A stretch of DNA of 64,000 bases. Origin: an uncultured Alphaproteobacteria bacterium (GTDB taxonomy: Bacteria; Pseudomonadota; Alphaproteobacteria; DATDPM01). Shown here one piece after another: positions 6,733 to 33,657 of the stretch (position 1 is its first letter; every line of letters begins with the position of its first letter). Under the pieces are notes generated by a model. It saw nothing but the letters and a program-made list of their open reading frames with translations. It did no database searches and was not told the origin of the DNA. Position numbers and translations under genes: made by a program. Where the stretch lies: contig CAWJEX010000003.1 of NCBI GenBank assembly GCA_963841995.1, positions 154,081 through 218,080 of the forward strand. The letters are read 5' to 3'.

Positions 6733-6872
6733 TTCGAGATTGCGTGTCGAATTTACAGGCGGCTTTGTCGTCTATTTAGGCTATTCGCATCGGAACAGCC
6801 TGCTCGCTCGGGCGGGCCAGCGCGGCCGATTTTCGAGTTGACGCGCGGCCCGCCCGGATAGCACCGCGGAAC

Positions 6873-7067
6873 TTAGACAGCCTCGCGCAGCGGGCTTTCC
6901 AGCCATGACGCCGGAATATTCGGCAGAATGAATTTGTGCCCGTTGAGATCGACCGCGACGTCGACTTGCGGCGTCCGTTCGATCGTCTTGCCGACAACTC
7001 TTCCGGTCAGTTGTATGTCCAATCGTACCGTATCATTGATGTCCATTGTCCACGCTCCATCCCCCAC
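6873..7067 (-). CDS. hypothetical small protein (possibly PRC-barrel-like)
   Basis: The 64-aa ORF reads 'VVGKTIERTPQVDVAVDLNGHKFILPN'. Support is weak. Confidence 0.3.
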   Translation of the reverse strand: MGDGAWTMDINDTVRLDIQLTGRVVGKTIERTPQVDVAVDLNGHKFILPNIPASWLESPLREAV

Positions 7068-7352
7068 TTCTGTTTCGTTGACGATCCGCCCTTTATCCGC
7101 CGCGTCAACCGCGCGGCGTGTTGTTAGACGTCTTATTGTGAGGCTTCTTTCGCCGCGTCATCCGCGCAGCGCTGACCTTCAATGTGGCCGATGAAAGGAT
7201 TAATTACACGCGCTTTTAAATAAAATTTTACCGATTAGTAACCTTAACGGCGCGCGCGTTATGGTTAATGGAGCCGGTGCTTAAAGACGGCGTAATCGGC
7301 ATCGCCGCGCCGCCGTGATGGCGGTGCGGTATTTTGACGGAACTTTGTCTTC

Positions 7353-8914: not shown

Positions 8915-9308
8915 TCAGACCTTCTTCTGGTTGGCGACATACTGCTTGATGATTTCCAGCGGCGCGCCACCTACCGTGGCTACGAAATAACTGTTGGTCC
9001 ACAATGTGGGCAGCCTGGTCCGCAGACTTCTGAAATTCCTGACGCAAAAGCCTGGACGACCATCCCTTCATCGCCTTCACCAAGCGATGAATGCCAAACT
9101 GCGGATCGGCGTCGACCAGCACATGCACATGATCCGGCATGATCTCCATCTCGATCAGCTGGCATTTATGGGCTGCCACGACATCGATGAGGATCTGCTT
9201 CAAGCGGATCTCCACATCGCCGACAAGCACATTGCGGCGGTACTTCGGGCACCACACCACATGATATTTGCAGGAAAACACCACATTGTGGTTCGAGCGG
9301 TAATCCAT
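8915..9308 (-). pseudogene. tnpA: tnpA (IS200/IS605 Y1 transposase), frameshifted near 9030-9035
   Basis: 'MDYRSNHNVVFSCKYHVVWCPKYRR...HVHVLV...' is the HUH/Y1 transposase. The conserved C-terminus 'RSLRTRLPTLWTNSYFVATVGGAPLEIIKQYVANQKKV*' is read in the adjacent frame. Its TGA is immediately followed by the tnpB ATG. Confidence 0.7.
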
Positions 9309-9389
9309 GCGGCATTATATATCATGCCGCAGCATATGGTACAATACAGGAACGCTATATCACGCGCTTTCCTCCCCATGGCTGAAGCG

Positions 9390-9711
9390 AGGGGCTTCTC
9401 GCGCAGATTCGGTGATTCATTGCCTGGGCCCGGTTTACGGCCGCGACAATCCTTCGGCCGAATTGCTCGCGTCCTGCTATCGCAATGCGCTAAAGCTCGC
9501 GGAGGAACACGGCATCGCTTCCATCGCCTTCCCCGCGATCTCGACCGGCGTGTTCGGTTATCCGAAGGACGAGGCCGCCGCGGTCGCGCTTAAAACCGTG
9601 ATCGCCGAATTGCCGCGGCTCGCATCGGTCAAGCAGATCCGATTCGTGCTGTACGGGGCGGATGATCTGGAAATCTACGAGCGGGCGATGGAGGAATGGG
9701 CGCAGCAGTAG
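9390..9711 (+). pseudogene. macro-domain (O-acetyl-ADP-ribose deacetylase-like) gene, 3' fragment only. The 5' ~75 codons are missing where the IS abuts.
   Basis: 'VIHCLGPVYG...LLASCYRNALKLAEEHGIASIAFPAISTGVFGYPKDEAA...VKQIRFVLYGADDLEIYERAMEE' matches the C-terminal two-thirds of YmdB-type macro domains. There is no GDIT/DAIVNAAN N-terminal region upstream. Confidence 0.6.
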
Positions 9712-19678: not shown

Positions 19679-20149
19679 TCAGATGTGGCAAACCGCGAGC
19701 CCGCGTTTTTCGAGATAGCGCTGATGATATTCTTCCGCCGGCCAGAACTGCGCCGCGGGAACGATCTGGGTCACGATCGGACGCTTGAAGCGGCCTGACG
19801 CGTCGAGCCGCGCCTTCGATTCGCGTGCGGCGCGCTCCTGTTCCGGGCTGTGAAAGAAGATCGCGGACCGGTACTGCTCGCCGACATCGGGTCCTTGGCG
19901 GTTGGGCGTCGTCGGATCGTGAATGCCCCAAAAAATATCCAGCAACTCTTCGTAGCGCACGCGCATCGGATCGAAGGTGACTTGCACTGCCTCGGCATGA
20001 CCGGTCGTTCCCGAACAGACGTCCTGATAAGTGGGACTGTCCAGCTTTCCGGCGGTATAGCCGACGGATGTTTCGACGACTCCCTCGACCTCGCGAAAGC
20101 GAGCCTCGATACCCCAGAAGCAGCCGGCGGCGAATGTGGCTTTGTCCAT
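19679..20149 (-). CDS. msrA: peptide methionine sulfoxide reductase MsrA
   Basis: It carries the catalytic motif '[10 protein letters not shown]', plus 'GYTAG' and '[19 protein letters not shown]'. Confidence 0.9.
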
Positions 20150-20275
20150 GAAACGCCTCACCACCGATCATTGAGAAGACAGGAAAGAAATGGGCCCTGC
20201 GTTGTGCCGCGCCAAGCCGCGCCGTGCACACGGGCCTTCACATTTGGGTGAACAAAGCGGGCGAGTGAAAGACGC

Positions 20276-20707
20276 CTAATGTCCCGCGTTCATCTTGCCG
20301 ACTTCCGGCTCCGGTGCGAGCGGTTCGTCGGGCGGAAGGCCAAGCGCCTGGCGATAGACTTTCTCCTGGAGATAACCTTGGCGCACCGCGCAACCGCCCT
20401 TGAACAGCACCAGCCAGGCATTGTGCGGATCCTCCGTGTGATGGAAAACCAACGCCTGATCCGCGTCGACGAGATGGGCGCCGGGGTAAGCGGCGGTGAA
20501 GGCCTTGTTCAAGTCCTTGACCTGGCTCTCGGTGAGCTTGTCCATGCTGCTGGCATCGGTCTGAAGTTGTTCGATCGCTTGGTTAAAGCTTACGCATTGC
20601 CCCTTTGCCGGCGCCCCTTCTGGTGCTGCGCTATCCGCCCGCGCTGCGCCTGCGGCGGCAACAAGGCCGAGCAATAGAACACTCGCTTTAACGATCGCGT
20701 TACGCAT
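20276..20707 (-). CDS. hypothetical secreted protein
   Basis: It has a signal peptide ('MRNAIVKASVLLLGLVAAAGAARA'). Confidence 0.4.
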   Translation of the reverse strand: MRNAIVKASVLLLGLVAAAGAARADSAAPEGAPAKGQCVSFNQAIEQLQTDASSMDKLTESQVKDLNKAFTAAYPGAHLVDADQALVFHHTEDPHNAWLVLFKGGCAVRQGYLQEKVYRQALGLPPDEPLAPEPEVGKMNAGH

Positions 20708-20918
20708 GGAACCCCACCCTTCTGACACCCTGAATCTAATACGAATACTCGGCCGTCAATGCGCCGGACGCGCGATGTTGTGGCAGGACCCGCGAGCGCT
20801 GACAAGCCCCCTCCCCGGGAAATCGATGACGATGATACGGCAAAAAAAGGGCGTGCATCGCGGCACGCCCCTCTCCTTGGTCACGGCAGCCAATGCTGGA
20901 TGCAATAGCCGACCGATA

Positions 20919-21245
20919 TTAATGCGGCCGTTCGGCCTCCTGCATCATCATGACCGACGGCGGCGCCGTTGCGCCAGCCGGGGTCACGCCGATGACGGCA
21001 AGCGCCCGTTTCAGATCCATTTGAGCCGTGGTTTCGTCGCCGGCGAGACACAGCTTTCGACCCTCGCCGGCAATCGCCTGGGCCTCGCCCACCCGCGCAT
21101 CGCCAGCATGAAAGGGAAGCTCGCCTTCGAATTGAGCAAGATAGGTGAGACAGCTTATCGGCTTCGTGGACTGCTGATCCGCCCGTGCGACAGTCGTCGC
21201 GCCCAGGATCAACATAGCCGTTGCCGTCACTATTGCGGTTCTCAT
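20919..21245 (-). CDS. hypothetical secreted protein
   Basis: It has a signal peptide ('MRTAIVTATAMLILGATTVARA'), similar to the neighbouring gene. Confidence 0.4.
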   Translation of the reverse strand: MRTAIVTATAMLILGATTVARADQQSTKPISCLTYLAQFEGELPFHAGDARVGEAQAIAGEGRKLCLAGDETTAQMDLKRALAVIGVTPAGATAPPSVMMMQEAERPH

Positions 21246-21716
21246 GATACCTCCAGTCGCCTGATCCAAACGACCAAGCGGTTAATCAATCCCCCAATTT
21301 GCGTATGCGAGTCATGTGGGATTGGGAAACGCGCAATACGACCCCAAAGTTCCGACTAAGGCGAAACTGGGGCAACGCAATGTTGTGAAGGACCGCCACG
21401 AACGCGGCCCATATTGTGAATTAGCGTCCGAGGTGAAGGGCTAAGGAAAGAATCACCAGCACGAAGAGAAGACCTGATGCGGCGAATGCAATCTTCACGG
21501 TCTTGCCGGGCGGCAAGGAATCATCGTTGGCGAGCGAGATCCGGGCGGATCGTTCGGCGCACAAAGGCGTCAAATTGCTGGCTTCGTGAGTCATCGTTTT
21601 CGTTGCGGCCAAGGAGCGCATGATTTCTTGCCTTCAAAATGCCTTGATTCCGGCAGGGCGAGCGGCGCGTCGATGCGCGTTATAGCGTGGAATTCCTTAA
21701 CCGTCGGTGAACGGAA

Positions 21717-22334
21717 CTACACTTTCGTTGCGTCGGTGTCGCTGTCTTGAGAAACACCCGTGATGACCGTGGCCGCCGCGAAATACGCACCGCCGGCAAA
21801 GCAGAAAAGGCTGGCGAATGCCGAAGCGATGGCGGCGATGCGCAACAAACGGCCCAGCCCGAGGCGGGGATGTCCACCGTCCTTAAATCGACCGGGGACA
21901 ATTGCGGGTTCGCCGCCGACGGGTTCGGCAATGTCGATTTCCCCGTCGTGAACTTCCGCGGCAAGCGCTCGCAATTTCAACAGAGCCATCCGGCTGCGCT
22001 GAATTTCGGCGAAATATCCGGAAGCCGTCGCGACTGCGGCGAGCAAGATGCCCGCGACGAACAAGGAGCCTGAATAGACGAATGACCCGAATGCGGCATC
22101 GAGATCGACATCGAGAAGGACGAGATAGATCGGGAAAATGAGAAGCGCCCCGCCGTTCAAGATAAACAGCGCGCGCAAGCCCAGTTGGCCGAGTGCCAGC
22201 GCGTTGCGATTGGACTCGGTGAACTTTTGTTCATAGCGATGGGCGGCGGCACGGGCCACGGTGACCCGGTCGGTGCGGACCGGGTCGGGTTGGCCGGGTA
22301 CCTCAAAGCGAAGAGGATTGGTCATTCGCCGCAT
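21717..22334 (-). CDS. hypothetical polytopic membrane protein
   Basis: It has 4-5 predicted TM helices. No family was recognised. Confidence 0.4.
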   Translation of the reverse strand: MRRMTNPLRFEVPGQPDPVRTDRVTVARAAAHRYEQKFTESNRNALALGQLGLRALFILNGGALLIFPIYLVLLDVDLDAAFGSFVYSGSLFVAGILLAAVATASGYFAEIQRSRMALLKLRALAAEVHDGEIDIAEPVGGEPAIVPGRFKDGGHPRLGLGRLLRIAAIASAFASLFCFAGGAYFAAATVITGVSQDSDTDATKV

Positions 22335-22514
22335 AGTCGCGCAAATAGACCATCAAGTCGAGCACCGGACTTTCCCGTCCGAACCCGGTCAAAATCCCGT
22401 GGATTTGGCTGCGGTCATGGGTCTGGTGGTCGAAGACATGGGAAAGGATAATGAGAAGGCCGTGCAATCCGTGGCGCCGAGGCGCGGCGGATCGCATCGC
22501 CGATCAATCACCGC

Positions 22515-22667
22515 TCACCACCGGCCGCAATGCCAGCAATCGTCGCGGTCTTGGAATTGATCGTCGTGAGGGTACGGGCGATAGGGATACGGCTCGTCGT
22601 AAACGACGCATCCCGCCAACGATCCCGCCACCACCAGGGATAAGACCATTGTTCGCAAGGCTTGCAT
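22515..22667 (-). CDS. putative small lipoprotein
   Basis: A 'VVAGSLAGC' lipobox is followed by a short mature peptide. Confidence 0.3.
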   Translation of the reverse strand: MQALRTMVLSLVVAGSLAGCVVYDEPYPYRPYPHDDQFQDRDDCWHCGRW

Positions 22668-22898
22668 GGCACGACTCCGTGTTTTGTCTTTAACAACAAC
22701 ACGGGGGAGACGCTTGTTCCCAGCGGATTGCAACGCACCGTTTTTTCATATCGCCGTGACAAGATTACAATTTCGTCATTAAGGAAGCCAACCCTGTCGC
22801 TGTGGGCGTATCGCACCCGTCGCCTCACGATGGAGAGAATTCGATAGGAAATATACGGACGAAGTTCGGCGGCGCCGGATGCCCGCCTACATCATGCT

Positions 22899-24639
22899 CT
22901 AATGCATCGGCGGCATCGGCATCGCGACGTCGACGCTATTCTTTCCGAACGCGACGACGCGGCTTGCCGGAAACGTCACCGTGACCACGGTCCCCTGGCC
23001 GACGGTGCTTTGCAACGCGATGGTCCCGCCATGAAGCGTGACAAGGCCGCGGGTAATGGAAAGCCCAAGTCCCACGCCCTCGAACTGGCCCGAGGTTTCG
23101 CGGCGGGCGCGCTCGAAGGGCTTGAAGACATGCTCGATCGAATCGGCCGGAATGCCGACGCCGGTATCGGAAACGCGGATCACCAAATCGCCGTTGTCGC
23201 CCCAGAGCGCGGTCATGTCGACCGCGCCGCCCTCGGGCGTGAATTTGATGGCGTTGGCCAGGAGATTGAGGAGAATTTGCCGCAAGGCTTTCGGGTCGGC
23301 CTCGATCGTGACGTTGCCGCAGGCGACGTCGGCGCGAAGCGCGATCGATTTCGCGCGGGCCTGAAGGCCGACGAATTTGATCGCCTGCTCGACCGCTTCG
23401 GCGAGCACCACATGCTCAATATTCAATGTGACGCGTCCCGCTTCGATCTTGGACATTTCCAAGAGATCGTTGATGAGCGCCAGCAGATGCTCGCCGCTCG
23501 AATGGATGAGCGCCGCATATTCCGTATATTCCTTGCTCGCGATCGGGCCGACGATTTCGCTTTTGATCATCGACGAGAAACCGATGATCGCGTTCAAGGG
23601 TGTTCGCAATTCGTGGCTCATATTGGCGAGAAACATCGATTTGGCGTTGCTGGCGCTCTGCGCTTCCTGCCGCTCGCTGACCAGGGCGACGATGGTCAGC
23701 ACATTGGTGGCCAGCACCACCACGAGCGTGCCGACCAACAGCAGGGGATTGGCCAAGGTTTGGTGCTGAAAGGGTCCAAATCCGGCGACCGTGCCGGCGG
23801 TGGCAAGCACGGCGACCAGCGAGACCAGGGTGTAGGCGGAACGGAGCGACATCCGCAACGCGATCCACGACAGCGGCACCACCAGCAGGAAGGGAAATGC
23901 CGGCCTGATGTCGTAGCCGCGCAGCGACGGCGTCAGGAACAGCATGAGGCTGATCAAAGCGACAAAGCCCCAAACCGCCATGTTCCGGCGATTGATCGCC
24001 CGGTCGGCCATGCGGACAGGCGTTTCAGGCTCCCGTTCGAGTCCCAGCCAAAGGATCACGGCCGGCGCCAGATAGAGCGTGCCGCCGCTGTCGGTGAGCC
24101 ACCACGTCACCCAGGTCGCGTAGAACTTGCCGGGATCGAACGGATGCCCGATCGCCAAAGCCGTGGCGCCGCCGGCGGCGCTGATCGCCGGGGCCAAAAA
24201 GGTGGTGCAGATGACGAAGGCCATCAGCCCGGCGATCGAGGTGAACAATCCGTTTTGCGGCCGCAAGCGCTTGAGGACCAGGATGCTGAGCACGGGACCG
24301 AGCGCGTTGGTCGCCGAAATGAGGGTGGTGATGTGCAAGGGCGGCGCGAACAAGATCGCATTGGCCAGAAACGAGCCCAGAAATATTCCCGGCAGCATCC
24401 GCAAATCGCCGACCATCGCAGCCACGATGGCAACGCTCGCCGGCAGCCAGATCGGCGCCGGGAACAGGCCATAGGAAGCGAAGAACGAATTGACCACCGA
24501 GCCGAGGGCGAAATAGAACGCCACGACCGCGGCATTGGCGCCGATCCAGGGCAAGGCACCGGCATCGGCAAGGAAGGGGGGCGTCCACGGCCGCGAGGGG
24601 CGTGGGATTGCGCCCGCGACCACTAATTCAACCGGCACT
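22899..24639 (-). CDS. sensor histidine kinase with a MASE1-type polytopic membrane sensor domain (orphan, no cognate response regulator nearby). The start is uncertain.
   Basis: The C-terminus has HisKA ('HELRTPLNAIIGF') and HATPase ('LLNLLANAIKF...GVGLGLSI') regions. The N-terminal ~330 aa form 8-9 TM helices. The ORF is open to 24824. A GTG at 24639 gives a plausible start. Confidence 0.8.
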
Positions 24640-24840
24640 GCAGATCCCCTGGCCCGGACACGGCGATGCCCCCCGACACGCGATACCCCCGTATTCTTAA
24701 CACGGGTATTCCGGATCAAAGGTTTTAAAGATTCCTGAAACCGGAAGATATTGGAATCGCGGGCCCGGGCGCCGGACAAAAATCCCAGGAAAATCCGAAG
24801 ATTTAGCCTGAGCCGCAACCGCAACTTGCCGACCGGCGGG

Positions 24841-25323
24841 TCAGGTTTGGGTATGCGCCTCGAGGAACCACAGCGCCTTGTCGAGGGCGCGGGAATAGGT
24901 TGTCAAAATATCCGCCGTGTCGGCGTCCCCGGCCGCGCTGGTCTCGTCGATACCGGCACGGACGGACTTGGCGACCTTGGCATAACGGTCGATCAGTGCC
25001 GCCAAATGATCTTTTTCCTTAAAGATGTCGGTCGGGTAGGGCGACAGGGCCGTGGATTTTGCAACTACTTGCGTGGTCCCGAGGGCGGTTCCGCCCAATT
25101 GCACGACGCGCTCGGCGATCGTGTCGACATGGGTGTCGAGTTCGGTTCGAAAGCCGTCGATCATTTCATGGAGGGCGATGAATTGCGGCCCCTTGATGTT
25201 CCAATGCGCCTGCTTGGTCAGCAGCGCCAGGTCGATCGAATCGGCCAGCCGCGCGTTGAGAATTTCGACGACGACTTTCTTTGTATTTGATTTCAGATCG
25301 TTATGGGCTTCGTACGATTTCAT
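24841..25323 (-). CDS. dps: Dps (DNA protection during starvation, ferritin-like)
   Basis: 'LNARLADSIDLALLTKQAHWNIKGPQFIALHEMIDGF' is the ferroxidase-centre region of Dps. Confidence 0.9.
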   Translation of the reverse strand: MKSYEAHNDLKSNTKKVVVEILNARLADSIDLALLTKQAHWNIKGPQFIALHEMIDGFRTELDTHVDTIAERVVQLGGTALGTTQVVAKSTALSPYPTDIFKEKDHLAALIDRYAKVAKSVRAGIDETSAAGDADTADILTTYSRALDKALWFLEAHTQT

Positions 25324-25427
25324 GCCTGCCCCCGTGATGGTTTAGAACTATGCCCGATACCGGATTTAATTAGGCGCGGAACCAGCCGGAAACAAGCCGG
25401 CACGCTGATTTGAATGGTGATCTGCCG

Positions 25428-26228
25428 TCACGCATGCCGGAATGCCTCGGCTGCTATCAACTCCTGATAGGCCTGCGCCAGCAAGCGCGCGAGCAGCGGA
25501 GCCCACGCTCGCTGCCCCTCGTCGCCGGCGATCAGGTCCTGGCGAATTTCGATTGCAACGTGATGGAGGCCTCGTCGCTCGCCGTGTACTGGGATGGTGT
25601 AATCCGTCGCGTCGGTCACGCTGTAGGGCTCGTTGTCGCCGACGATGAGCCCCTCTTCGCGTTTCAGCGCCGCCATGAGGAAATGGGCGAAACGCGGATC
25701 GCGATTGTAGAGCACGCCAACGTGCCAGGGCCGCGCCGCGCCCTTGAAGACAGGCGCAAAGCTATGCATCGCCACCAGCACCGCCGGTCGGCCGGCTTGC
25801 CGCCGCCGGTCAAGTTCGGCTTCGATCCGATCATGGTAGGGCCGGAAAATCTCGCCGACGCGCGCGGCCTTCCGGCCTTCGCTCAAGCCCGTATTTCCCG
25901 GAATAGGGGTCAGCTCGCTGATTTCCGGGATCGATGTCTCCGAGCCCGGCATGCGGTTGCAGTCGATGACCAGGCGCGAATAGCTCTGCTGCACCAGGGT
26001 GGCGTCGAGAGCGTCCGCGATGAGGCGGGAGACCGCGGCGACGCCGACGTCCCAGGCGATGTGGCGATCGCATTCGGCTTCCGGAACGCCCAGCCGGCCG
26101 AGCGCGCGCGGAATGGCATTGCCCGCGTGATCGGCGACGATCAGGAATGGCGACGAGCCGTTTTCGTTGCGCACCGTGACCGGCGCCGGCTCGTCGGCCG
26201 CCAACAGGCTATCGGACATCTCGGTCAT
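25428..26228 (-). CDS. N-formylglutamate amidohydrolase (HutG-like, FGase) family protein
   Basis: 'FLIVADHAGNAIP...' matches the FGase/zinc-hydrolase fold family over its full length. Confidence 0.7.
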   Translation of the reverse strand: MTEMSDSLLAADEPAPVTVRNENGSSPFLIVADHAGNAIPRALGRLGVPEAECDRHIAWDVGVAAVSRLIADALDATLVQQSYSRLVIDCNRMPGSETSIPEISELTPIPGNTGLSEGRKAARVGEIFRPYHDRIEAELDRRRQAGRPAVLVAMHSFAPVFKGAARPWHVGVLYNRDPRFAHFLMAALKREEGLIVGDNEPYSVTDATDYTIPVHGERRGLHHVAIEIRQDLIAGDEGQRAWAPLLARLLAQAYQELIAAEAFRHA

Positions 26229-26362
26229 TGGCGCTCACGCTCGTGGCTGAAACGCCGGTATGGTAGCGACATGCGCTGTTCTTGGCCCGAAAAATGCCTG
26301 TCTAGTAAAAATGCGTGTTTAGTAATGCATGTTAGTGGGGCTTGTCCCATTGGGGAACTGCA

Positions 26363-27257
26363 ATGCCGATAATCGCCATCAGGCACGTCACGACCTATCG
26401 CTATAAGCAACCGGTCTCGTTCGGCGAACACCGGATGATGTTGCGGCCGCGCGACGACGACGACCAGGAGCTGCTCGAATCCGAGCTCGAAATCACGCCC
26501 GAGCCGAGCCAACTTACCTGGATACAGGATATCTTCGGCAATCATGTCGCGATCGCCCGTTTCGCGGAGCCGGCCGCAGAGCTTCGCTTCGTCAGCACCA
26601 CTTGTGTCAACCACGCGCCGTCGGGGCTTCCACGCAGCCGATAGCGATAATTTTGCCCGAAGATATCCGTTTGGCTACGCCGCGGAAGATAGACCGGGGC
26701 TCGCGAGTTTTATCGCGCCGCTGGCATCGCAGCCCGCGCTCGATCGCTGGGTCGCCAGGTTTCTCCGCGAGGACGGATCGGCCGACACCCACGAACTTCT
26801 CGTCGACATGACGCAGACCATCAAGCGGACCTTCAAGCACACGGCGCGGCACGAGAAGGGCACCCAGGATCCGATCAGGACGCTGAAGCTCGCGAGCGGG
26901 AGTTGTCGCGACCTTGCGGTGCTCATGATCGCGGCGCTGCGCTCGCTTGGAATCGCCGCACGGTTCGTGTCCGGATATCTGCATCTTGCCGATGACGGCG
27001 ACCGTGTCGCCGGCGGTAACACCCATGCCTGGGTCCAGGTCCACGTTCCCGGCCCGGGCTGGGTCGACTTCGATCCGTCGAGCGGCATGGTCGGGAATCA
27101 GAACCTGGTGCGCGTCGCGGTCGTGCTCGAGCCGCGCGAGGCGATTCCGTTGCAAGGCACGTGGATCGGGACCGCGTCGGACCATCTCGCCATGAAGGTC
27201 GCGGTCAAGGTCACCGCGGCAGCGGATGCCGGCGCGACGTGGTCCCGCGCGGGATGA
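26363..27257 (+). CDS. transglutaminase-family protein (Bact_transglu_N + transglutaminase-like Cys-protease core), with an apparent frameshift at ~26595-26635
   Basis: 'MPIIAIRHVTTYRYKQPV...LRPRDD...DIFGNHVA' is the N-terminal domain (ORF 26342..26644). 'YPFGYAAEDRP...GSCRDLAVLMIAALRSLGIAARFVSGY...HAWVQVHVPGPGWVDFDPS' is the core with the catalytic Cys (ORF 26544..27257). The two overlap in different frames. Confidence 0.65.
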
Positions 27258-27353
27258 TGACCCGGCCTCGACGTGCGGCCATTCGTCGCGCGCGCGAAGA
27301 CCGGAATTTTCGGTCTCTCTTGGCACGCCGGCGCCGGCGCCGAGAGGTTTTCG

Positions 27354-28182
27354 ATGAAAATTCGTGCAGGCTACGAGATTTCCTATGACTGCCCGCAGCC
27401 GACGCCCATGATCCTGACGCTGAGCGTCCATCCGTCACGCGTTCCCGATCTGCTGACCCGGGATCGCATGCCGTCTCGATCCGCCCATCCCCGCCAACAC
27501 CTATCACGACAGTTTCGGCAATTTCTGCCACGTGATCCGCGCCCCCGCGGGCCGGCTGACCATGTCCACGGACTTCCTGGTGCAGGACAAGGGCGAGCCG
27601 GACGCGATCGCCCCGCAGGCGGAGCAGCATGCGCTCGAAGACCTTCCGGTGGAGGTCCTGATCTATCTGCTCGGCAGCCGCTACTGCGAGACCGATCGTC
27701 TATCGAATACGGCGTGGTCCCTGTTCGGGCAGGTTCCGAAGGGTTGGCCGCTGGTGAAGGCGATCTGCGACTACGTCCACGATCGCATCACCTTCGGTTA
27801 CGAGCACGCGAGCCCGACCAAGACGGCATGGGATGCCCATACCGAGCGACGCGGCGTGTGCCGGGACTTCGCCCACCTCGCGGTCACGCTGTGCCGCTGC
27901 ATGAACATTCCGGCGCGCTACTGCACCGGCTATCTCGGCGACATCGGCGTGCCGCTCGACGATCCGCCGATGGATTTCAGCGCCTGGTTCGAAGCCTATC
28001 TCGGCGGCCGCTGGTACACCTTCGATGCCCGCCACAACAAGCCGCGCATCGGCCGCATCCTGATGGCACGCGGGCGCGACGCCACCGACGTCGCGATCGT
28101 GACCTCATTCGGCCCGTGTACGCTCGCGAGCTTCAAGGTGATCACCGACGAGGTCACGTCGACCGCTCCCGCGAGTCCGTGA
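27354..28182 (+). CDS. transglutaminase-family protein, paralogue of the previous gene, with an apparent frameshift at ~27466-27480
   Basis: 'MKIRAGYEISYDCPQPTPMILTLSVHPSR' is in frame 1. 'DPPIPANTYHDSFGNFCHVIRAPAGRL...RGVCRDFAHLAVTLCRCMNIPARYCTGY...FSAWFEAYLGGRWYTFD' is in the adjacent frame. Confidence 0.65.
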
Positions 28183-29083
28183 CGGTTTCAAGCCCCGCGG
28201 CGCCGAAATTGTCGCTTCACTTGCCCTCGCGGCTGGCGATGGCGTCCCCTATGTCACCGTCTCGGCTGTCCTGGTGGATTTCTAAACGGTGCCGCCTTCA
28301 CCATCGGCAGCGTGAACAAAACCTCACCATCACCACCCAACAACTCACCAGCCCGAACCGGCAAGCGCGAGCGCGAACCCAGGAGGATAACTGGCGGAGG
28401 AAGGGAGGTGTTTGGTGGGGTTATTTTTGCTGACGCGCGCAGGTTACCCTATTCCGGGAAAATCCTTTCCTTGCCGTCGTCGGTTCTCAACAGACCACCA
28501 TAATATGGAGGCCCCGATGCAGCGTAATCCCGTATTTCCTGCGGTCTTAAAAGTCGTTCATGTACCATCAGAGCTTGCTTTGAGATTTCCCCGACATCGT
28601 CGAAGGCAGTTATGTTCAGTTCCGCTCCTACGACGAACCCCAGCGGAATCTCCTTGGGTGCTCCTGCACCGTCTTTCGTGATCGTTCGGGCCGAAGCAAC
28701 TGACGCACCAAGTCCTCAAACCGGTGCGGGTCTAAATCTTCAAAGTGAAGAGGATTTATGGTTTTCGTCGCCGACGACATACGTTAGCAAAGAGTTTGAT
28801 CAAGAGTGTCTAATTCCCTCTATTGGCCGGAATGGCTGCCGTATGAAGCATTTCGTTTATTGCTCGCCCAATCCTTTTCCACACCACCGCGCCGTCCAGA
28901 ACGCCAGCCGCCAGAAAATTGGCCGCCCTCATCGCCGCGTAAATACGGGCGTGTGTGCGCCGTGCTGCTTGATGCGGATGCGTGCGGAGCGGAACGCCAG
29001 AAGTCTTAGTCACCTGCATCCCTTCCGTTGTTTTTCGCACCTCTCTGCAGCATTATAGCTCGGCGCAAAGGACGGGGGATGGC

Positions 29084-29263
29084 ATGAAACCGACATTTTT
29101 CCTCATAACTGCGCTTTTCATCTTGACGGTGGCACCAACTATTGCTGCAGCCTTTGGCTGCGGCTTGCCACCGCTGCCACCGTTGGGTTGCGAGGCCTCA
29201 AGCGGACAATGCATTTGCGACGCGAACGGAAATTGCCAATGGATATTTACCCACTGCCACTAA
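29084..29263 (+). CDS. small secreted Cys-rich peptide (59 aa; six Cys in the ~35-aa mature part)
   Basis: 'MKPTFFLITALFILTVAPTIAAA|FGCGLPPLPPLGCEASSGQCICDANGNCQWIFTHCH'. The ORF has a signal peptide and a purine-rich stretch ahead of the ATG. It lies in locally low-GC DNA. Confidence 0.4.
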   Translation: MKPTFFLITALFILTVAPTIAAAFGCGLPPLPPLGCEASSGQCICDANGNCQWIFTHCH

Positions 29264-29856
29264 TCAATCGCGGGCTTTTCGAACCGACTGCCGACCCAGT
29301 GCTCATTATTTTGCGGCAGGGACGAAAGGTTATTCCGCTAGCCGCTCTTATCTTAGTAGCGGTTGTTTGGCTGCGTTCGCAGATCGACGGATTTCTACAC
29401 GGTCCAGATGGATGCGGGCCAGTAAGTGGGCGACTGACGCTACGCCAACTCCACCTTGCATTCAGAGCTCCATTTTCGAACAGGAATACTCGACGCGCCC
29501 CGCAATGCAATCGGGCGGCATCGGGGCTGCTCCCGACCGCAGGTAATGTGGCATTACATCCGGAGACGGCGACTGGGTTCCGTTCCGCGTGAACCGCGGC
29601 GTCGTCGCCGTACTGCTTGATGAGAATGTGCACGGAGCGCCAGATGCCGACGTCGCCTGTTGCCATTCGATGACGCGCTTTACGATTTCCCGACAAACAG
29701 TCGTGTTTTTTTACACTCAAGAATTGATGACAACGCTTAACCGCATGAATTCCCAGAAATCTCGGATATTGGCCCAAATCTTGCGTTAACTATTTTGGAC
29801 TACCGGAGATCTGGCTGGGTGGCACTTAATCTCCGGAGCAACTGGTGGAGTCACGA

Positions 29857-30462
29857 ATGCGGAAGCTTGGTTTATGGATGGCGTCGGCTGCCTTCATTGC
29901 TTTCCAGGTGCCGTACGCGAACGCAGATACTTTCGATTGGAGCTATACCGACGTACCGTTTGGAGGCTCCGACGTGGGGGGCGGCACGCTCACAGCAACC
30001 GATGATGGTTTAGGTCAATACACCCTTGATACAATTTCGGGCACGGCCGATGGGCAGACCGTTTTAGGGCCCAGCTCTTATGATGGTCCCGATCAGTTTT
30101 TGTATTATTTCCCTCCTCCTGATGTTCAATGCAGTGGCGCGAGTGCGCCTTGTCCGCCGGGAGGTACTTATGTCGCCCTTGATACGGGGGGGTTCTCATT
30201 CAGTGTGGGGGCGGGGACGGATTCGTACAATCTCTACGAAGATGATGGTGTCTTTAGTCCCGGCCCTCCCTATGGCTGCGGAGGAGTCTATTGCCTGTTG
30301 GGGCCGGGAACAGTTGGCGCTGGTGATCCATTTACTACCGTAGAGTTTTCGCTAACGCCCGTTCCCGAGCCAGCATCTCTCGGCATCTTCGGCATCGGTC
30401 TAGCGGGCCTCGGCTGGATGCGCCGCCGTCGCTTGGCCTCACGGGCTCTCAAGGCCGCGTAA
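29857..30462 (+). CDS. PEP-CTERM (exosortase-sorted) secreted protein
   Basis: It has a signal peptide and ends 'VPEPASLGIFGIGLAGLGWMRRRRLASR' (VPEP motif + TM + Arg cluster). The body is Gly/Thr/Asp-rich. Confidence 0.65.
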   Translation: MRKLGLWMASAAFIAFQVPYANADTFDWSYTDVPFGGSDVGGGTLTATDDGLGQYTLDTISGTADGQTVLGPSSYDGPDQFLYYFPPPDVQCSGASAPCPPGGTYVALDTGGFSFSVGAGTDSYNLYEDDGVFSPGPPYGCGGVYCLLGPGTVGAGDPFTTVEFSLTPVPEPASLGIFGIGLAGLGWMRRRRLASRALKAA

Positions 30463-30581
30463 ACCGGATCATCAAAGAGTTTTCCAGCGGCGGTTCCCTC
30501 GTGGAGCCGCCGTTTTTGTTTGCGCGTGAACCGCCACGCTTGCGCCGTCCTTGACGCAAGCGTGGCGGTCAAACGTATGCC

Positions 30582-30743
30582 CTACGAACCGGCGCGATCT
30601 TCCTGCATGGCGGCGAGATATTCATAAATCGTCGCCTTCCCAAGAACCAATCGGTGGGCGACGGCTGCTGCTTTCGGTGAAAGCGGCCGTTGTGCCCGTT
30701 CGATTATGTCCCGGAGAATTGGCGGAATCGGCATTTCTGACAT
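30582..30743 (-). CDS. orphan 53-aa HTH protein resembling the C-terminal HTH_7 domain of serine recombinases/resolvases
   Basis: 'MSEMPIPPILRDIIERAQRPLSPKAAAVAHRLVLGKATIYEYLAAMQEDRAGS*' was found by manual translation and is below the ORF-track length cutoff. The pattern 'VAHRLVLGKATIYEYL' is like 'VARRLGVSRSTLYRYL'. No catalytic domain lies upstream. Confidence 0.35.
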   Translation of the reverse strand: MSEMPIPPILRDIIERAQRPLSPKAAAVAHRLVLGKATIYEYLAAMQEDRAGS

Positions 30744-30942
30744 CACTTAAATCACCGCCTTTCGTGGGCGGGGAACTCAAGCGATCGGGTCGCGAATTCT
30801 ACCCGCCCGACACATAACGCTGCCGGCCGCGTGGGTGCAAGGTCCAGCTTCGGCTGGGGCTTTCGGGTGGCCTGGCTAATGGCGTATATTTTACAAATGC
30901 TTTACAGACGCCGGAGGCTGTTGCTTAAGCTATTGAAATGAT

Positions 30943-31018
30943 TGGCGTCCCCTAGGGGAGTCGAACCCCTGTTCCCGCCGTGAGAGGGCGGTGTCCTGGG
31001 CCACTAGACGAAGGGGAC
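30943..31018 (-). tRNA. tRNA-Glu (anticodon CUC)
   Basis: The reverse complement is a 76-nt cloverleaf with a 3' CCA: GTCCCCTTCGTCTAGTGGCCCAGGACACCGCCCTCTCACGGCGGGAACAGGGGTTCGACTCCCCTAGGGGACGCCA. The anticodon stem is CCGCC/GGCGG and the loop CTCTCAC. Confidence 0.9.
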
Positions 31019-31178
31019 TTGGCGGCCAATTGGAAGGATGGCCAGTCTTAGCGGATGGCCCGGGCCGGTTCAAGGCTAGCGCCTAAGTCCCTGTGCGCAT
31101 TGATCCCAGAGTGAAGATCCCTGAGAGAATTGATCCTGGGGCCTTGGCTCCCTGGGTGAATTGACCTTCGCACCTTGA

Positions 31179-31523
31179 TTAGGGACCGAAATCGAATTCG
31201 CCCAAGGCGGCGCCGGAATCGAGATCGACCACGATGAGGCGCGGGCTGCCATCGGCCAGGCGCAGTCTCAGGATCATGCGATTGCCGGATGTGATTACAT
31301 CGTCAAGATGCGCGCCTTCGGGGAGAGCGATGTGCTGGGTTCCGAAGCCGCGCTTTTCGGCCCCCGCGGTTTTCCCCACCTCGGTAGTTTTCTCGGCGGC
31401 CGGCGTTTCGTCTTTCGCCTCGAGATGCGCGGTCGTGCGCTTGTAGAGCGTCACCGCCACCAGACCGGCGCCGGCCGCGATCAATATCGCCATCAGGATG
31501 ACGAGGGCCTTGAGCGCTCGCAT
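31179..31523 (-). CDS. hypothetical small membrane-anchored protein
   Basis: It has an N-terminal TM helix ('ALVILMAILIAAGAGLVAV') and an ~85-aa soluble domain. The rest of the long ORF 31179..32540 is antisense to rluD. Confidence 0.4.
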   Translation of the reverse strand: MRALKALVILMAILIAAGAGLVAVTLYKRTTAHLEAKDETPAAEKTTEVGKTAGAEKRGFGTQHIALPEGAHLDDVITSGNRMILRLRLADGSPRLIVVDLDSGAALGEFDFGP

Positions 31524-31604
31524 GGTTCCGGTCCACCCTCTCCGCCGATAGAGTCCCGCCAATGCACTACGCCCCAACGAACGGGGCCGATAAGCAATTC
31601 GCCG

Positions 31605-32594
31605 ATGGCCGATTTGAACGAGCAGCGCCCCAACGAACAGCGCCATTATGTTGCGGCAACCGCCAAGCATAAGGGCGAGCGCCTGGACAAATTGCTCGCC
31701 GCGGCCTTGCCCGCGCTGTCGCGCACGCGCCTCAAGAATTTGATCGAAGCGGGCCGCGTTGCCTGCGCGGGTGCGACGATAACCGACGCCTCGCGCCGGG
31801 TCAAACCGGGGGAAATCTTCGAGATCGTGGTGCCGCCGCCGGTTCCCGCGGAACCGCGCGCGCAAAATATTCCGCTCGCGATCGTCTATGAGGACGAGGA
31901 TTTGATCGTGATCGACAAGCCGGCGGGGCTCGTCGTTCACCCGGCCCCCGGCAACCGCGACAACACGCTGGTCAACGCTCTCCTCGCCCATTGCGGAAAG
32001 AGTTTTTCGGGAATCGGCGGGGTGATGCGCCCCGGCATCGTTCATCGTCTCGACAAGGATACGAGCGGGCTGATGGTGGTGGCGAAAAACGACGCGGCCC
32101 ATGCGTCGCTGGCCCGGCAATTTGCCGAGCGGACGATGAGCCGCGCCTATTATGCGGTGGTCTGGGGCGTCCCGCGAAAAGCGGAGGGCGAGATTTCCGG
32201 GAATATCGGGCGCAATCCGCACTTTCGGAAAAAAATGGCGGTGGTGAAGAGCGGCGGCAAACCGGCGCTGACCCGCTACAAGGTTTTGCGCAGCTTCGGC
32301 AAGATGGCCAGTCTGATCGAATGCCGGCTGATGAGCGGCCGCACCCATCAGATCCGCGTCCACATGGCGGCCATCGGCCATCCGGTCATCGGCGATACGG
32401 TTTACGGCGGCAAATCGCCACCGGGAATCAAATTGGACCCCGCTCTCGCAACTGCAGCAAAGCACCTCGGCCGGCAGGCGCTTCACGCCTATTTGATTGG
32501 CTTCGATCACCCGAGAACCGGCGAGAGGCTCGAATTTCAATCAAATATAACTTCTGATATCAATATGTTGATAGAACTCTTGGAAAAATCATGA
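31605..32594 (+). CDS. rluD: 23S rRNA pseudouridine synthase RluD (RluA family)
   Basis: It has an S4 domain ('ERLDKLLAAAL...') and the catalytic 'HRLDKDTSGLMVVAKN' motif. Confidence 0.9.
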   Translation: MADLNEQRPNEQRHYVAATAKHKGERLDKLLAAALPALSRTRLKNLIEAGRVACAGATITDASRRVKPGEIFEIVVPPPVPAEPRAQNIPLAIVYEDEDLIVIDKPAGLVVHPAPGNRDNTLVNALLAHCGKSFSGIGGVMRPGIVHRLDKDTSGLMVVAKNDAAHASLARQFAERTMSRAYYAVVWGVPRKAEGEISGNIGRNPHFRKKMAVVKSGGKPALTRYKVLRSFGKMASLIECRLMSGRTHQIRVHMAAIGHPVIGDTVYGGKSPPGIKLDPALATAAKHLGRQALHAYLIGFDHPRTGERLEFQSNITSDINMLIELLEKS

Positions 32595-32766
32595 TCTAGC
32601 TTATATACCTGAGTAGGTTACTCAGATATTGTTGACGCACCGCCCGCAAAAGAGCTAAGTTAACGACAACGGGCGAGCGACCCCCAAAACCTTCGGGCCG
32701 GGGGGCTCGCCCGTTTCGCCCTAAGGGCCAGGGTACCAAACAGAAAAAATGGCCTAGGAGATTGGA

Positions 32767-33657
32767 ATGGCAACGAGCACCTCATACCGCCTGCCCAGCC
32801 TTGGATCGGAACGCGGCCTCTCGCGCTATCTCGGGGAGATTCGCAAGTTTCCGATGCTGACGCCGGAAGAGGAATTCATGCTCGCCAAGCGTTGGCGCGA
32901 GCATAGCGATTCCGAAGCCGCGCATCGTTTGGTCACGAGCCATCTCCGGCTCGTCGCCAAGATTGCGATGGGGTATCGCGGTTACGGACTGCCGCTCAAC
33001 GAACTTATTTCGGAAGGCAATGTCGGCATGATGCAAGCGGTCAAGCGCTTCGATCCCGACCGTGGCTTCCGGCTCGCGACCTATGCGATGTGGTGGATCC
33101 GCGCGGCAATCCAGGAATACATCCTGCATTCCTGGTCGCTGGTGAAACTCGGCACGACTGCGGCGCAGAAGAAGCTGTTCTTCAATCTGCGCAAGCTCAA
33201 GGGCCAGATCAAAGCGGTCGAAGAAGGCGATTTGACCCCCGAACACGTCAAGAAGATCGCCGAAGAGCTGAACGTGACCGAAGAAGACGTGATCTCGATA
33301 AATCGCCGGTTGATCGGCGCCGATCATTCGCTGAATGCGCCCTTGCGCGCCGACAGCGAGGGCGAGTGGCAGGATTGGCTGGTCGACGAAACGGCGAATC
33401 AAGAAGAGACGCTCGCCGAGAAAGAAGAAATGACCAATCGCCACGATCTGCTCGGACAGGCGCTGAAAACGCTGAGCGAACGCGAGCGGCATATCTTGAA
33501 CGAACGGCGCTTGCGCGACGAGCCGTTGACGCTCGAGGATTTGTCGCAGGAATACGGCATTTCCCGCGAACGGGTGCGGCAGATCGAGGTTCGCGCCTTC
33601 GAGAAGCTGCAAAAGGCGATGAAAAATCTGGTGATCGAGCAGCGCCTGGCAAAATAA
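32767..33657 (+). CDS. rpoH: RNA polymerase sigma-32 (heat-shock sigma factor RpoH)
   Basis: It carries the RpoH box 'QKKLFFNLRKLK' and sigma regions 2-4. Confidence 0.95.
   Translation: MATSTSYRLPSLGSERGLSRYLGEIRKFPMLTPEEEFMLAKRWREHSDSEAAHRLVTSHLRLVAKIAMGYRGYGLPLNELISEGNVGMMQAVKRFDPDRGFRLATYAMWWIRAAIQEYILHSWSLVKLGTTAAQKKLFFNLRKLKGQIKAVEEGDLTPEHVKKIAEELNVTEEDVISINRRLIGADHSLNAPLRADSEGEWQDWLVDETANQEETLAEKEEMTNRHDLLGQALKTLSERERHILNERRLRDEPLTLEDLSQEYGISRERVRQIEVRAFEKLQKAMKNLVIEQRLAK

What the first reader, a model, noticed from the sequence alone, without database searches (positions are those of the whole stretch)
28190..31018. Low-GC islet abutting the tRNA-Glu(CUC) 3' end: Cys-rich peptide, PEP-CTERM protein, orphan recombinase-HTH
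Between the second transglutaminase gene and the 3' end of tRNA-Glu (30943), GC content drops and gene density is low. The credible genes are a 59-aa signal-peptide-bearing peptide with six Cys (29084-29263), a PEP-CTERM-tagged secreted protein (29857-30462), and a 53-aa resolvase-type HTH fragment (30582-30743) with no catalytic domain. tRNA 3' ends are classic integration sites. The orphan HTH plus degraded ORFs at 28400-29060 suggest a decayed integrative element whose cargo is the secreted peptide/PEP-CTERM pair.
Basis: partly seen in the sequence, partly recalled or inferred. Interest (0 to 1): 0.55.

Follow-up and report, generated by a model that had tools for sequence, protein, structure and literature searches.

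The report
Decayed tRNA-Glu genomic islet, secreted cargo
A 2.7-kb low-GC stretch next to a tRNA-Glu gene is most likely the worn-down remnant of a mobile element: a 12-base copy of the tRNA's end marks its far edge, no recombinase survives, and two small secreted-protein genes remain, which is an ordinary kind of bacterial genome scar.

Summary
Window 28183-30942 has 56% GC, the lowest of any 2.76-kb stretch in the window (mean 61.5%). It abuts the 3' end of tRNA-Glu(CUC) (30943-31018, minus strand) and is gene-poor.

The last 12 nt of the tRNA gene (TGGCGTCCCCTA, 30943-30954) recur exactly once, at 28240-28251. That is 58 nt past the neighbouring gene's stop, where GC falls (simulated P about 1.5e-4). 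This is the signature of site-specific integration into a tRNA 3' end.

No recombinase remnant exists. Six-frame Pfam finds only the PEP-CTERM tag. The 53-aa "HTH" ORF has no homologue among 5.8 billion proteins and no resolvase-HTH match.

The PEP-CTERM protein is real, with about 23 homologues that elsewhere sit beside IS110 transposases or another tRNA. The 6-Cys peptide belongs to a widespread unannotated family (at least 151 clusters). The two never co-occur elsewhere.

No empty site could be found, because no close relative keeps this gene order.

Verdict: an integrase-less, CIME-like remnant of a tRNA-integrated islet. It is a new member of a known kind and of modest interest. The Cys-peptide family is the most novel by-product.

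The parts
28183..28239 (.). Spacer between the transglutaminase-2 stop (28182) and the distal repeat. It is the putative original 3' trailer of tRNA-Glu before the insertion.
   Evidence: Inference from the position of the repeat. Homology to relatives L097, L098 and L089 stops at 28182-28184, so this stretch is lineage-specific.
28240..28251 (+). Distal 12-nt direct repeat TGGCGTCCCCTA. It is the candidate displaced fragment of the tRNA 3' end, i.e. the far att site.
   Evidence: It is the only direct match of 10 nt or more between 30920-31018 and 20000-30900. There are only two copies in 64 kb on both strands, even with one mismatch allowed. P(anchored 12-mer in 2.76 kb) is about 1.5e-4 in 20,000 Markov simulations.
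28252..30942 (.). Islet body: low GC, low coding density.
   Evidence: No similarity to plasmids or to any fetched locus outside the PEP-CTERM CDS.
28810..29040 (-). DUF6961-like small gene, copy 1, read in two frames (frameshifted pseudogene or assembly indel).
   Evidence: Frames shown. The reconstructed 65-aa sequence hits Pfam DUF6961 at E 7e-4 (20.1 bits, below the cut-off of 27).
29084..29263 (+). Gene for a 59-aa Sec-type secreted peptide with six conserved Cys in a mature part of about 35 aa.
   Evidence: At least 151 representative clusters at E<=1e-3. Alignment A1 has invariant or near-invariant C26, C36, C43, C45, C51 and C58, and the motif CG-x-x-P-x-PP-x-GC...C-x-CD-x-x-G-N-C-x-W. 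The AF2 mature part has pLDDT of about 90. There is a GGGGGA Shine-Dalgarno 5 nt upstream.
29583..29666 (-). DUF6961-like fragment, copy 2 (N-terminal part only: MATGDVGIWRSVHILIKQYGDDAAVHAE).
   Evidence: 34-nt direct repeat, 82% identical, 28958-28991 against 29606-29639 (family D7). Translation.
29857..30462 (+). Gene for a 201-aa PEP-CTERM-tagged secreted protein: signal peptide, small beta-barrel domain, then VPEP + TM helix + RRRR.
30486..30524 (+). Intrinsic terminator of the PEP-CTERM gene (12-bp stem plus a T run).
   Evidence: A similar hairpin and tail follow the homologue in L086 (sequence).
30530..30569 (.). Perfect 15-bp inverted repeat (ACCGCCACGCTTGCG / CGCAAGCGTGGCGGT) with a 10-nt loop. 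Function unknown.
   Evidence: It is unique in the window.
30582..30743 (-). Orphan 53-aa ORF with a helix-turn-helix-like motif (…LGKATIYEYL…). Its coding status and function are unproven.
   Evidence: It has one amino-acid difference in the second MAG.
30943..30954 (+). Proximal 12-nt repeat. It is the last T-stem base, the 3' acceptor strand, the discriminator and CCA of the tRNA gene.
30943..31018 (-). Intact tRNA-Glu(CUC) gene.
   Evidence: The order tRNA-Glu(CUC) - small membrane protein - rluD - rpoH recurs in many Alphaproteobacteria.

Best explanation
The islet is the decayed, integrase-less remnant of a small genomic island. The island once inserted by site-specific recombination into the 3' end of the tRNA-Glu(CUC) gene.

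The incoming circular element carried an att site containing the last 12 nt of the tRNA (TAGGGGACGCCA on the tRNA strand). Recombination regenerated an intact tRNA at 30943-31018. It pushed the original 12-nt terminus and its trailer to the far end (28240-28251 and 28183-28239).

Later deletions and mutational decay removed the integrase and most genes. What is left is:
- debris: two DUF6961-like fragments and non-coding stretches;
- an orphan HTH-like ORF;
- two intact, separately acquired or retained genes for exported proteins, a 6-Cys mini-protein and a PEP-CTERM surface protein.

Shown: the repeat, its placement, the compositional anomaly, the absence of recombinase domains, and the reality of both cargo gene families.

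Inferred: that the repeat arose by integrase action, that an integrase was once present, and that the element is now immobile unless an integrase acts in trans.
For: - The exact 12-nt direct repeat is anchored precisely at the tRNA terminus. Its only other copy is 58 nt beyond the flanking gene's stop, at the GC transition. Simulated chance is about 1.5e-4 for the anchored 12-mer and 0.004 for any tRNA 12-mer.
- There are no terminal inverted repeats at the islet ends (read directly from the sequence), which argues against a transposon target duplication.
- GC is the lowest in the window, and GC3 is 0.55-0.57 against 0.70-0.87 for host genes.
- Gene debris is present.
- PEP-CTERM homologues sit in variable or mobile contexts elsewhere. 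They lie directly beside IS110 transposases in L082 and L085. In a Rhizomicrobium MAG one lies 80 nt from the 3' end of tRNA-Gly(TCC), in a low-GC patch.
- Homology with the closest relatives ends right at the transglutaminase stop.
- The proximal junction (islet-tRNA-rluD-rpoH) is confirmed by an independent assembly at 99.8% identity.
- Literature. The regenerated tRNA gene and its displaced fragment mark island ends (PMC4383910). Att core repeats are generally 8-60 bp, and elements that lost their integration genes but kept attL and attR are known as CIMEs (PMC5704250). The asymmetric tRNA 3' end is a recognised integration sublocation (bioRxiv 10.1101/2020.11.02.365908).
Against: - No integrase, recombinase or transposase remnant appears in any frame. 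The HTH ORF has no homologue.
- The repeat is only 12 nt, shorter than the 15-221 bp seen for Klebsiella tRNA islands (10.1101/2020.11.02.365908).
- No empty site was found: 0 hits in JGI metagenomes. No close relative with the same gene order was retrieved, so variable presence is unproven.
- Low GC could also arise by AT-biased decay of unconstrained DNA.
- Both neighbouring transglutaminase genes are frameshifted in this assembly. Some 'pseudogene' calls may therefore be assembly indels.
Confidence: 0.58

Rival explanations
1. This is not a mobile element. It is an ordinary fast-evolving, weakly constrained intergenic zone at a synteny break downstream of a tRNA. Lineage-specific small genes arise, duplicate and decay there. 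The 12-nt repeat is a coincidence, and the low GC reflects AT-biased mutation in unconstrained DNA.
For: - No recombinase remnant.
- The HTH ORF is an orphan.
- No empty site was found.
- The region beyond tRNA-Glu differs in every alphaproteobacterial locus examined.
- The neighbouring genes are themselves frameshifted.
Against: - The anchored 12-mer has P of about 1.5e-4 and sits exactly at the compositional boundary.
- The intact PEP-CTERM gene, which has an SD and a terminator, also has foreign-like GC3 of 0.55.
- Its homologues elsewhere lie next to IS110 transposases or another tRNA.
Confidence: 0.24
2. This is a still-functional, non-autonomous mini-element, mobilisable in cis or in trans. 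The two 12-bp repeats are live att cores. The 53-aa HTH protein beside the tRNA-proximal att acts as an excisionase-like directionality factor. An integrase encoded elsewhere in the genome, or on a co-resident element, excises and integrates the islet.
For: - Both repeats are perfect.
- The HTH ORF lies about 200 nt from the proximal att and is intact in two assemblies.
- Small HTH directionality factors are notoriously sequence-diverse (general knowledge).
- The CIME precedent (PMC5704250).
- In the second MAG the contig breaks inside the islet, at window 29723. This could reflect population heterogeneity.
Against: - No homologue of the HTH exists anywhere, so no family of such elements is visible.
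- The protein is near-neutral rather than basic (counted from the sequence).
- Most of the islet is debris.
- No attP-like junction occurs in viral contigs.
- No integrase is present in the 64-kb window (TM and ORF survey). The rest of the genome is unseen.
Confidence: 0.12
3. This is an assembly artefact. The low-GC segment was mis-joined into the MAG contig from another organism.
For: - The source is a metagenome-assembled genome (names).
- The distal junction near 28183-28400 is seen in only one assembly.
- The other MAG's contig begins at 29723.
- Indel-type differences and frameshifts nearby suggest imperfect consensus.
Against: - The independent assembly covers 29723-33191 at 99.8% identity, including the islet-tRNA junction.
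- A chimera would not be expected to create an exact copy of the tRNA terminus at the other junction.
Confidence: 0.05

Closest known systems
tRNA-integrated genomic islands as defined by the Islander principle (PMC4383910)
   Same: - It lies immediately 3' of an intact tRNA gene.
- A fragment identical to the tRNA 3' end marks the far boundary.
- Its composition is deviant.
- Its cargo consists of accessory (secreted) proteins.
   Different: - There is no integrase gene.
- It is only 2.7 kb, whereas the smallest integrase-bearing tRNA islands in Klebsiella were 3.5 kb (10.1101/2020.11.02.365908).
- The repeat is 12 nt, at the short end of known cores.
- Variable presence among strains is not demonstrated.
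[quoted passage not shown]
   Same: [quoted passage not shown] It has no recombination or transfer genes, and its content is decayed.
   Different: CIMEs were defined in Firmicutes by relation to known ICEs and by observed accretion and cis-mobilisation. Here no parent element, no helper and no mobility are known.
PEP-CTERM / exosortase-sorted surface proteins (Pfam PF07589, TIGR02595)
   Same: The 201-aa protein has the canonical architecture: a signal peptide, a passenger domain, then VPEP, a hydrophobic helix and an Arg cluster.
   Different: - The passenger domain matches no named PEP-CTERM subfamily; NCBIfam hits cover only the tag.
- Orthologous passengers in other organisms carry a different C-terminal tag, TPLPAxLPLFATGLG…GWRRKRK.
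- No exosortase is present in the window.
   Same: It has a short helical ORF with a '…ATIYEYL' recognition-helix-like motif.
   Different: - It has no HTH_7 or Resolvase Pfam match.
- No homologue exists anywhere.
- There is no room for a catalytic domain upstream: only 199 nt separate it from the tRNA.

Membership tests
tRNA-integrated genomic island (Islander criteria) | Abuts the 3' end of an intact tRNA or tmRNA gene | tested here: met
   The tRNA-Glu(CUC) is at 30943-31018 (minus strand) and is intact. The islet ends at 30942.
tRNA-integrated genomic island (Islander criteria) | A displaced fragment of the tRNA 3' end, as a direct repeat, at the distal boundary | tested here: met
   An exact 12 nt at 28240-28251, identical to 30943-30954. 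It is unique in the window, with P of about 1.5e-4. It is short compared with typical repeats.
tRNA-integrated genomic island (Islander criteria) | An integrase gene (usually a tyrosine recombinase) inside the island | tested here: not met
   The six-frame Pfam scan finds only PEP-CTERM. PHROGs, PADLOC and plasmid searches give no significant match.
tRNA-integrated genomic island (Islander criteria) | Composition that deviates from the host | tested here: met
   GC 0.56 against 0.615. GC3 0.55-0.57 against 0.70-0.87.
tRNA-integrated genomic island (Islander criteria) | Variable presence: an empty site in related strains | tested here: inconclusive
   The empty-site pattern has 0 hits in JGI metagenomes. 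The nearest relatives found lack the tRNA next to the transglutaminase genes. The genome-collection scan returned only relatives at 60% identity or less.
CIME (cis-mobilizable element) | Retains both att sites and lacks integration and transfer genes | tested here: met
   Two perfect 12-nt repeats and no recombinase or transfer domains.
CIME (cis-mobilizable element) | Derives from, and is mobilised by, a related functional integrative element | not testable with these tools
   Only 64 kb of the genome is available. No parent element was found in the plasmid or viral collections.
PEP-CTERM exosortase substrate | C-terminal PEP motif, then a transmembrane helix, then a basic cluster | tested here: met
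   PF07589 at 33 bits (cut-off 20.7). TIGR02595 at 27 bits (cut-off 16). The sequence is VPEPASLGIFGIGLAGLGWMRRRR.
PEP-CTERM exosortase substrate | N-terminal signal peptide | tested here: met
   Hydrophobic N-terminus MRKLGLWMASAAFIAFQVPYANA, conserved across alignment A2. AF2 models helix 4-16. No dedicated signal-peptide predictor was available.
PEP-CTERM exosortase substrate | A cognate exosortase (XrtA/EpsH family) encoded in the genome | not testable with these tools
   The window holds no further PEP-CTERM protein. Its only two polytopic membrane ORFs look, from the sequences, like an amino-acid permease (read from its N-terminal sequence) and a MASE1 histidine kinase (Pfam). The rest of the genome is unseen.
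Serine recombinase (resolvase) HTH | Match to the resolvase HTH (HTH_7) and/or an adjacent Resolvase catalytic domain | tested here: not met
   Only HTH_IclR (E 0.02) and HTH_22 (E 0.04), both below their cut-offs. No Resolvase domain in six frames. No homologues.
DUF6961 (Pfam PF22284) | Profile match above the gathering threshold | tested here: inconclusive
   The frame-corrected copy 1 scores 20.1 bits, E 7e-4, against a cut-off of 27.

The most novel reading that the evidence does not exclude
The 59-aa product of 29084-29263 may represent an undescribed, widespread family of Sec-exported bacterial mini-proteins. The mature part is about 35 aa, with the motif CG-x-x-P-x-PP-x-GC-x(6)-C-x-C-D-x-x-G-N-C-x-W-x-F-x-x-C, three presumed disulfides and a confidently predicted beta-hairpin core that has no PDB match. 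On this reading it acts as an extracellular effector (antimicrobial, toxin or signal) and is spread horizontally on tiny integrase-less tRNA islets such as this one, which are moved in trans.
Probability: 0.15. Interest if true: 0.6.

Novelty: new member of a known kind. Interest (0 to 1): 0.3.

Why it matters
For the islet itself the value is mainly technical. A 12-nt displaced tRNA terminus can still delimit a fully decayed, integrase-less island in an uncultured alphaproteobacterium. Automated island finders that require an integrase or a repeat of at least 15 nt would miss it.

It also shows that PEP-CTERM passenger domains travel between hosts and swap sorting tags.

The more useful lead is the 6-Cys peptide. 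It belongs to a large family with no Pfam or NCBIfam model and no name, found from 36%-GC to 62%-GC bacteria. It would be cheap to test for disulfide structure and bioactivity.

Tried and rejected
- A 27-mer of the tRNA 3' end with up to 3 mismatches has no second copy. The 20-mer scan at 16/20 or better also found none. Only the exact-word search revealed the 12-mer.
- The generic repeat finder listed nothing tRNA-related.
- Rfam found nothing in 26-33 kb except the tRNA.
- Folding of 28183-28450 on both strands gave z of about 0, so there is no structured RNA at the distal end.
- The metagenome scan for the empty-site junction returned 0 hits. The scan with the small membrane protein returned only relatives at 33% identity.
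- Transglutaminase homologues at 88-92% identity were traced to contigs. None keeps the tRNA next to the gene, so no empty or occupied comparison was possible.
- I suspected a restriction-endonuclease-like N-terminus in the minus-strand ORF 28628-28780 (INPLHFEDLDPHRFEDLVRQLL) from memory. Pfam, NCBIfam, PHROGs and PADLOC gave nothing, so the idea is dropped.
- A transposon with a 12-bp target duplication is rejected. The islet ends (TGTCACCGTC… and …TTGAAATGAT) are not inverted repeats.
- Plasmid and viral links for the islet DNA, HTH, Cys peptide and PEP-CTERM protein: none. The family-profile scan for the Cys peptide in viral contigs could not be run.
- The exact-sequence look-up of the Cys peptide found no called gene in the collection.
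Full report
**1. The observation**

ARAGORN and Rfam place a single tRNA in the window, tRNA-Glu(CUC), at 30943-31018 on the minus strand. The islet therefore abuts its 3' end.

GC falls from about 0.65 in the transglutaminase genes to 0.52-0.57 between about 28200 and 30200. The stretch 28183-30942 has GC 0.560. The minimum over all windows of that size in the 64 kb is 0.559, starting at 28206 (mean 0.615, sd 0.015). The islet ORFs have GC3 of 0.55-0.57, against 0.70-0.87 for host genes.

**2. The att test**

A 27-mer of the tRNA 3' end has no second copy, even with three mismatches. An exact-word comparison of 30920-31018 against 20000-30900 gave a single hit. TGGCGTCCCCTA, which is exactly the last 12 nt of the tRNA gene (30943-30954), recurs at 28240-28251. 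On the tRNA strand these 12 nt are the last T-stem base, the 3' acceptor strand, the discriminator and CCA.

These are the only two copies in the whole window on either strand, with one mismatch allowed. The distal copy lies 58 nt after the transglutaminase-2 stop, where GC drops.

In 20,000 first-order Markov simulations of the islet, a 12-mer anchored at the tRNA terminus appeared with P of about 1.5e-4. Any 12-mer of the tRNA appeared with P of about 0.004. Similarity does not extend beyond the 12 nt. The islet ends are not inverted repeats, so a transposon target duplication is unlikely.

This is the arrangement expected after site-specific integration into a tRNA 3' end. The regenerated gene and its displaced fragment mark the island's ends (PMC4383910). 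Core repeats of 8-60 bp are usual (PMC5704250). The asymmetric 3' end is a recognised sublocation (bioRxiv 10.1101/2020.11.02.365908). In that Klebsiella survey the repeats were 15-221 bp, so 12 nt is short.

**3. Is a recombinase left?**

None was found.

- A six-frame translation of 28183-30942, scanned against Pfam at E<=1, returns the PEP-CTERM motif and otherwise only one non-significant hit (DUF4791, E 0.11); no recombinase, integrase or transposase domain.
- The 53-aa ORF at 30582-30743 (minus strand) has sub-threshold hits to HTH_IclR (E 0.02) and HTH_22 (E 0.04), and none to the resolvase HTH.
- It has no homologue among 5.8 billion clustered proteins except its own 98% allele in a second MAG.
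- PHROGs gives only one non-significant hit (E 0.18, family of unknown function); PADLOC and a tblastn search of plasmids give nothing.
- Only 199 nt separate it from the tRNA, so a lost catalytic domain upstream is not plausible.

It is an orphan HTH-like ORF, not a demonstrable recombinase remnant.

**4. Other content**

On the minus strand, a 34-nt direct repeat (28958-28991 against 29606-29639, 82% identity) marks two copies of a small gene. Copy 1 (28810-29040) reads in two frames. After frame correction it hits Pfam DUF6961 at E 7e-4, which is below threshold. Copy 2 (about 29583-29666) keeps only the N-terminal part.

I could not substantiate a remembered resemblance of ORF 28628-28780 to restriction-endonuclease N-termini.

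One caveat applies. Both adjacent transglutaminase genes are frameshifted in this assembly (about 26630 and about 27471). Some 'decay' may therefore be consensus error.

**5. The PEP-CTERM protein (29857-30462)**

The tag is confirmed. The exact protein is also in NCBI MAG GCA_049280315.1. That contig (L001) is 99.8% identical to window 29723-33191, which independently confirms the islet-tRNA-rluD-rpoH junction.

There are 23 homologues at 41-58% BLASTP identity, nearly all from metagenomes. Alignment A2 shows a conserved passenger of about 140 aa with two invariant Cys, and a 16-aa insertion unique to the window protein. Several homologues replace VPEP with a TPLPAxLPLFATGLG…GWRRKRK tag, which neighbouring proteins in L082 also carry.

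The contexts are not conserved but are suggestive:

- IS110 transposases lie directly downstream in L082 and L085.
- In a Rhizomicrobium MAG the homologue ends 80 nt from the 3' end of tRNA-Gly(TCC), in a low-GC patch. No repeat was detectable there.

The homologues' GC3 is also below that of their neighbours. No exosortase and no second PEP-CTERM protein lie in the window.

**6. The Cys-rich peptide (29084-29263)**

A full HMMER scan of 1.84 billion representatives found at least 151 proteins at E<=1e-3. Most are 45-65 aa. A few listed hits are low-complexity artefacts.

Alignment A1 shows a signal peptide and a mature module with six conserved Cys and the motif CG-x-x-P-x-PP-x-GC…C-x-CD-x-x-GNC-x-W-x-F. 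No member hits Pfam and none carries a name.

Two contexts were examined, in genomes of 45% and 36% GC. They are unrelated to each other and to PEP-CTERM genes. AF2 gives pLDDT of about 90 for the mature part, and there is no significant PDB match.

The gene is therefore real, but the 'peptide/PEP-CTERM pair' is not a conserved unit.

**7. Comparative test**

The order tRNA-Glu(CUC) - small membrane protein - rluD - rpoH recurs across Alphaproteobacteria. The tRNA is therefore ancestral, and what lies beyond its 3' end varies.

The closest relatives retrievable share the transglutaminase genes at 82-90% nucleotide identity. Homology stops at 28182-28184 and no tRNA follows. The empty-site junction pattern had no hit in JGI metagenomes. 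A protein-based scan found only relatives at 33% identity. Presence or absence of the islet in relatives therefore remains untested.

**8. Verdict**

The best reading (confidence about 0.58) is an integrase-less, CIME-like remnant of a tRNA-Glu-integrated islet. It is bounded by 12-nt repeats (28240-28251 and 30943-30954). It carries two intact exported-protein genes, an orphan HTH-like ORF and gene debris.

The rivals are:

- a non-mobile decaying intergenic zone with a chance repeat (about 0.24);
- a still-mobile non-autonomous element that uses the HTH as a directionality factor (about 0.12);
- an assembly chimera (about 0.05).

This is a new member of a known kind and of modest interest. 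The unannotated 6-Cys peptide family is the most novel by-product.

Noticed in passing
window 29084-29263 (alignment A1; proteins P0150-P0299): The 6-Cys peptide belongs to a large family of secreted mini-proteins with no name and no Pfam or NCBIfam model. There are at least 151 clusters at 50% identity. The motif is CG-x-x-P-x-PP-x-GC…CxCDxxGNCxW. A three-repeat variant with two Cys per repeat also exists (P0159). Members occur in genomes from 36% to 62% GC.
   Followed up: partly
window 26342-27257 and 27354-28182: Both transglutaminase-like genes next to the islet are frameshifted in this assembly, near 26630 and 27471. The relative L097 has an independent 1-nt deletion about 15 nt away in the second gene. 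These are either real pseudogenisation of the pair or indel errors in the assemblies.
   Followed up: partly
window about 7350-9310 (second low-GC zone, about 6560-9700): From its sequences this looks like an IS200/IS605-type element: a TnpA-like ORF at 8505-9308 (minus strand) and a TnpB-like gene split into 7952-8914 and 7353-8441 (minus strand). It abuts a Macro-domain gene that keeps only profile positions 53-118 (9307-9711). Pfam gave no hit for the N-terminal TnpB-like piece. The identification rests on reading the sequences.
   Followed up: partly
L082 1809-2411, 2906-3442, 8001-8558, 11814-12494; also P0002-P0006: Homologues of the PEP-CTERM passenger domain carry a different C-terminal sorting tag in some organisms (TPLPAxLPLFATGLG…GWRRKRK). 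Several unrelated neighbouring proteins share that tag. The same passenger has therefore been re-tagged for different sorting systems.
   Followed up: partly
L086 8001-8718; L082 8972-11308; L085 8747-9781: The PEP-CTERM homologue in a Rhizomicrobium MAG also ends about 80 nt from the 3' end of a tRNA, tRNA-Gly(TCC), in a low-GC patch. In two other contigs IS110-family transposase genes lie immediately downstream of the homologue.
   Followed up: partly
window 29723 (start of L001, GCA_049280315.1 JBAPPV010000385.1): The second MAG's contig breaks inside the islet, just upstream of the PEP-CTERM gene. This may reflect low coverage or strain heterogeneity in the distal half of the islet. The two assemblies differ by 5 substitutions and 2 single-A indels over 3.47 kb.
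   Followed up: no
window 30530-30569: A perfect 15-bp inverted repeat with a 10-nt loop lies between the PEP-CTERM terminator and the HTH ORF stop. It has no T-run on either strand and is unique in the window. Its function is unknown.
   Followed up: partly
window 30080-30145 (residues about 76-97 of the PEP-CTERM protein): The window protein has a 16-residue insertion, (Y)YFPPPDVQCSGASAPCPPGG, with two extra Cys. It is absent from all 23 homologues, and AF2 models it with low confidence.
   Followed up: no
window 30943-33657 and loci L003, L005, L006, L025, L029, L024, L045, L057: The arrangement tRNA-Glu(CUC) - small membrane protein (weak DUF6476 match) - rluD - rpoH is conserved across distant Alphaproteobacteria. 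The DNA beyond the tRNA 3' end differs in every genome.
   Followed up: partly
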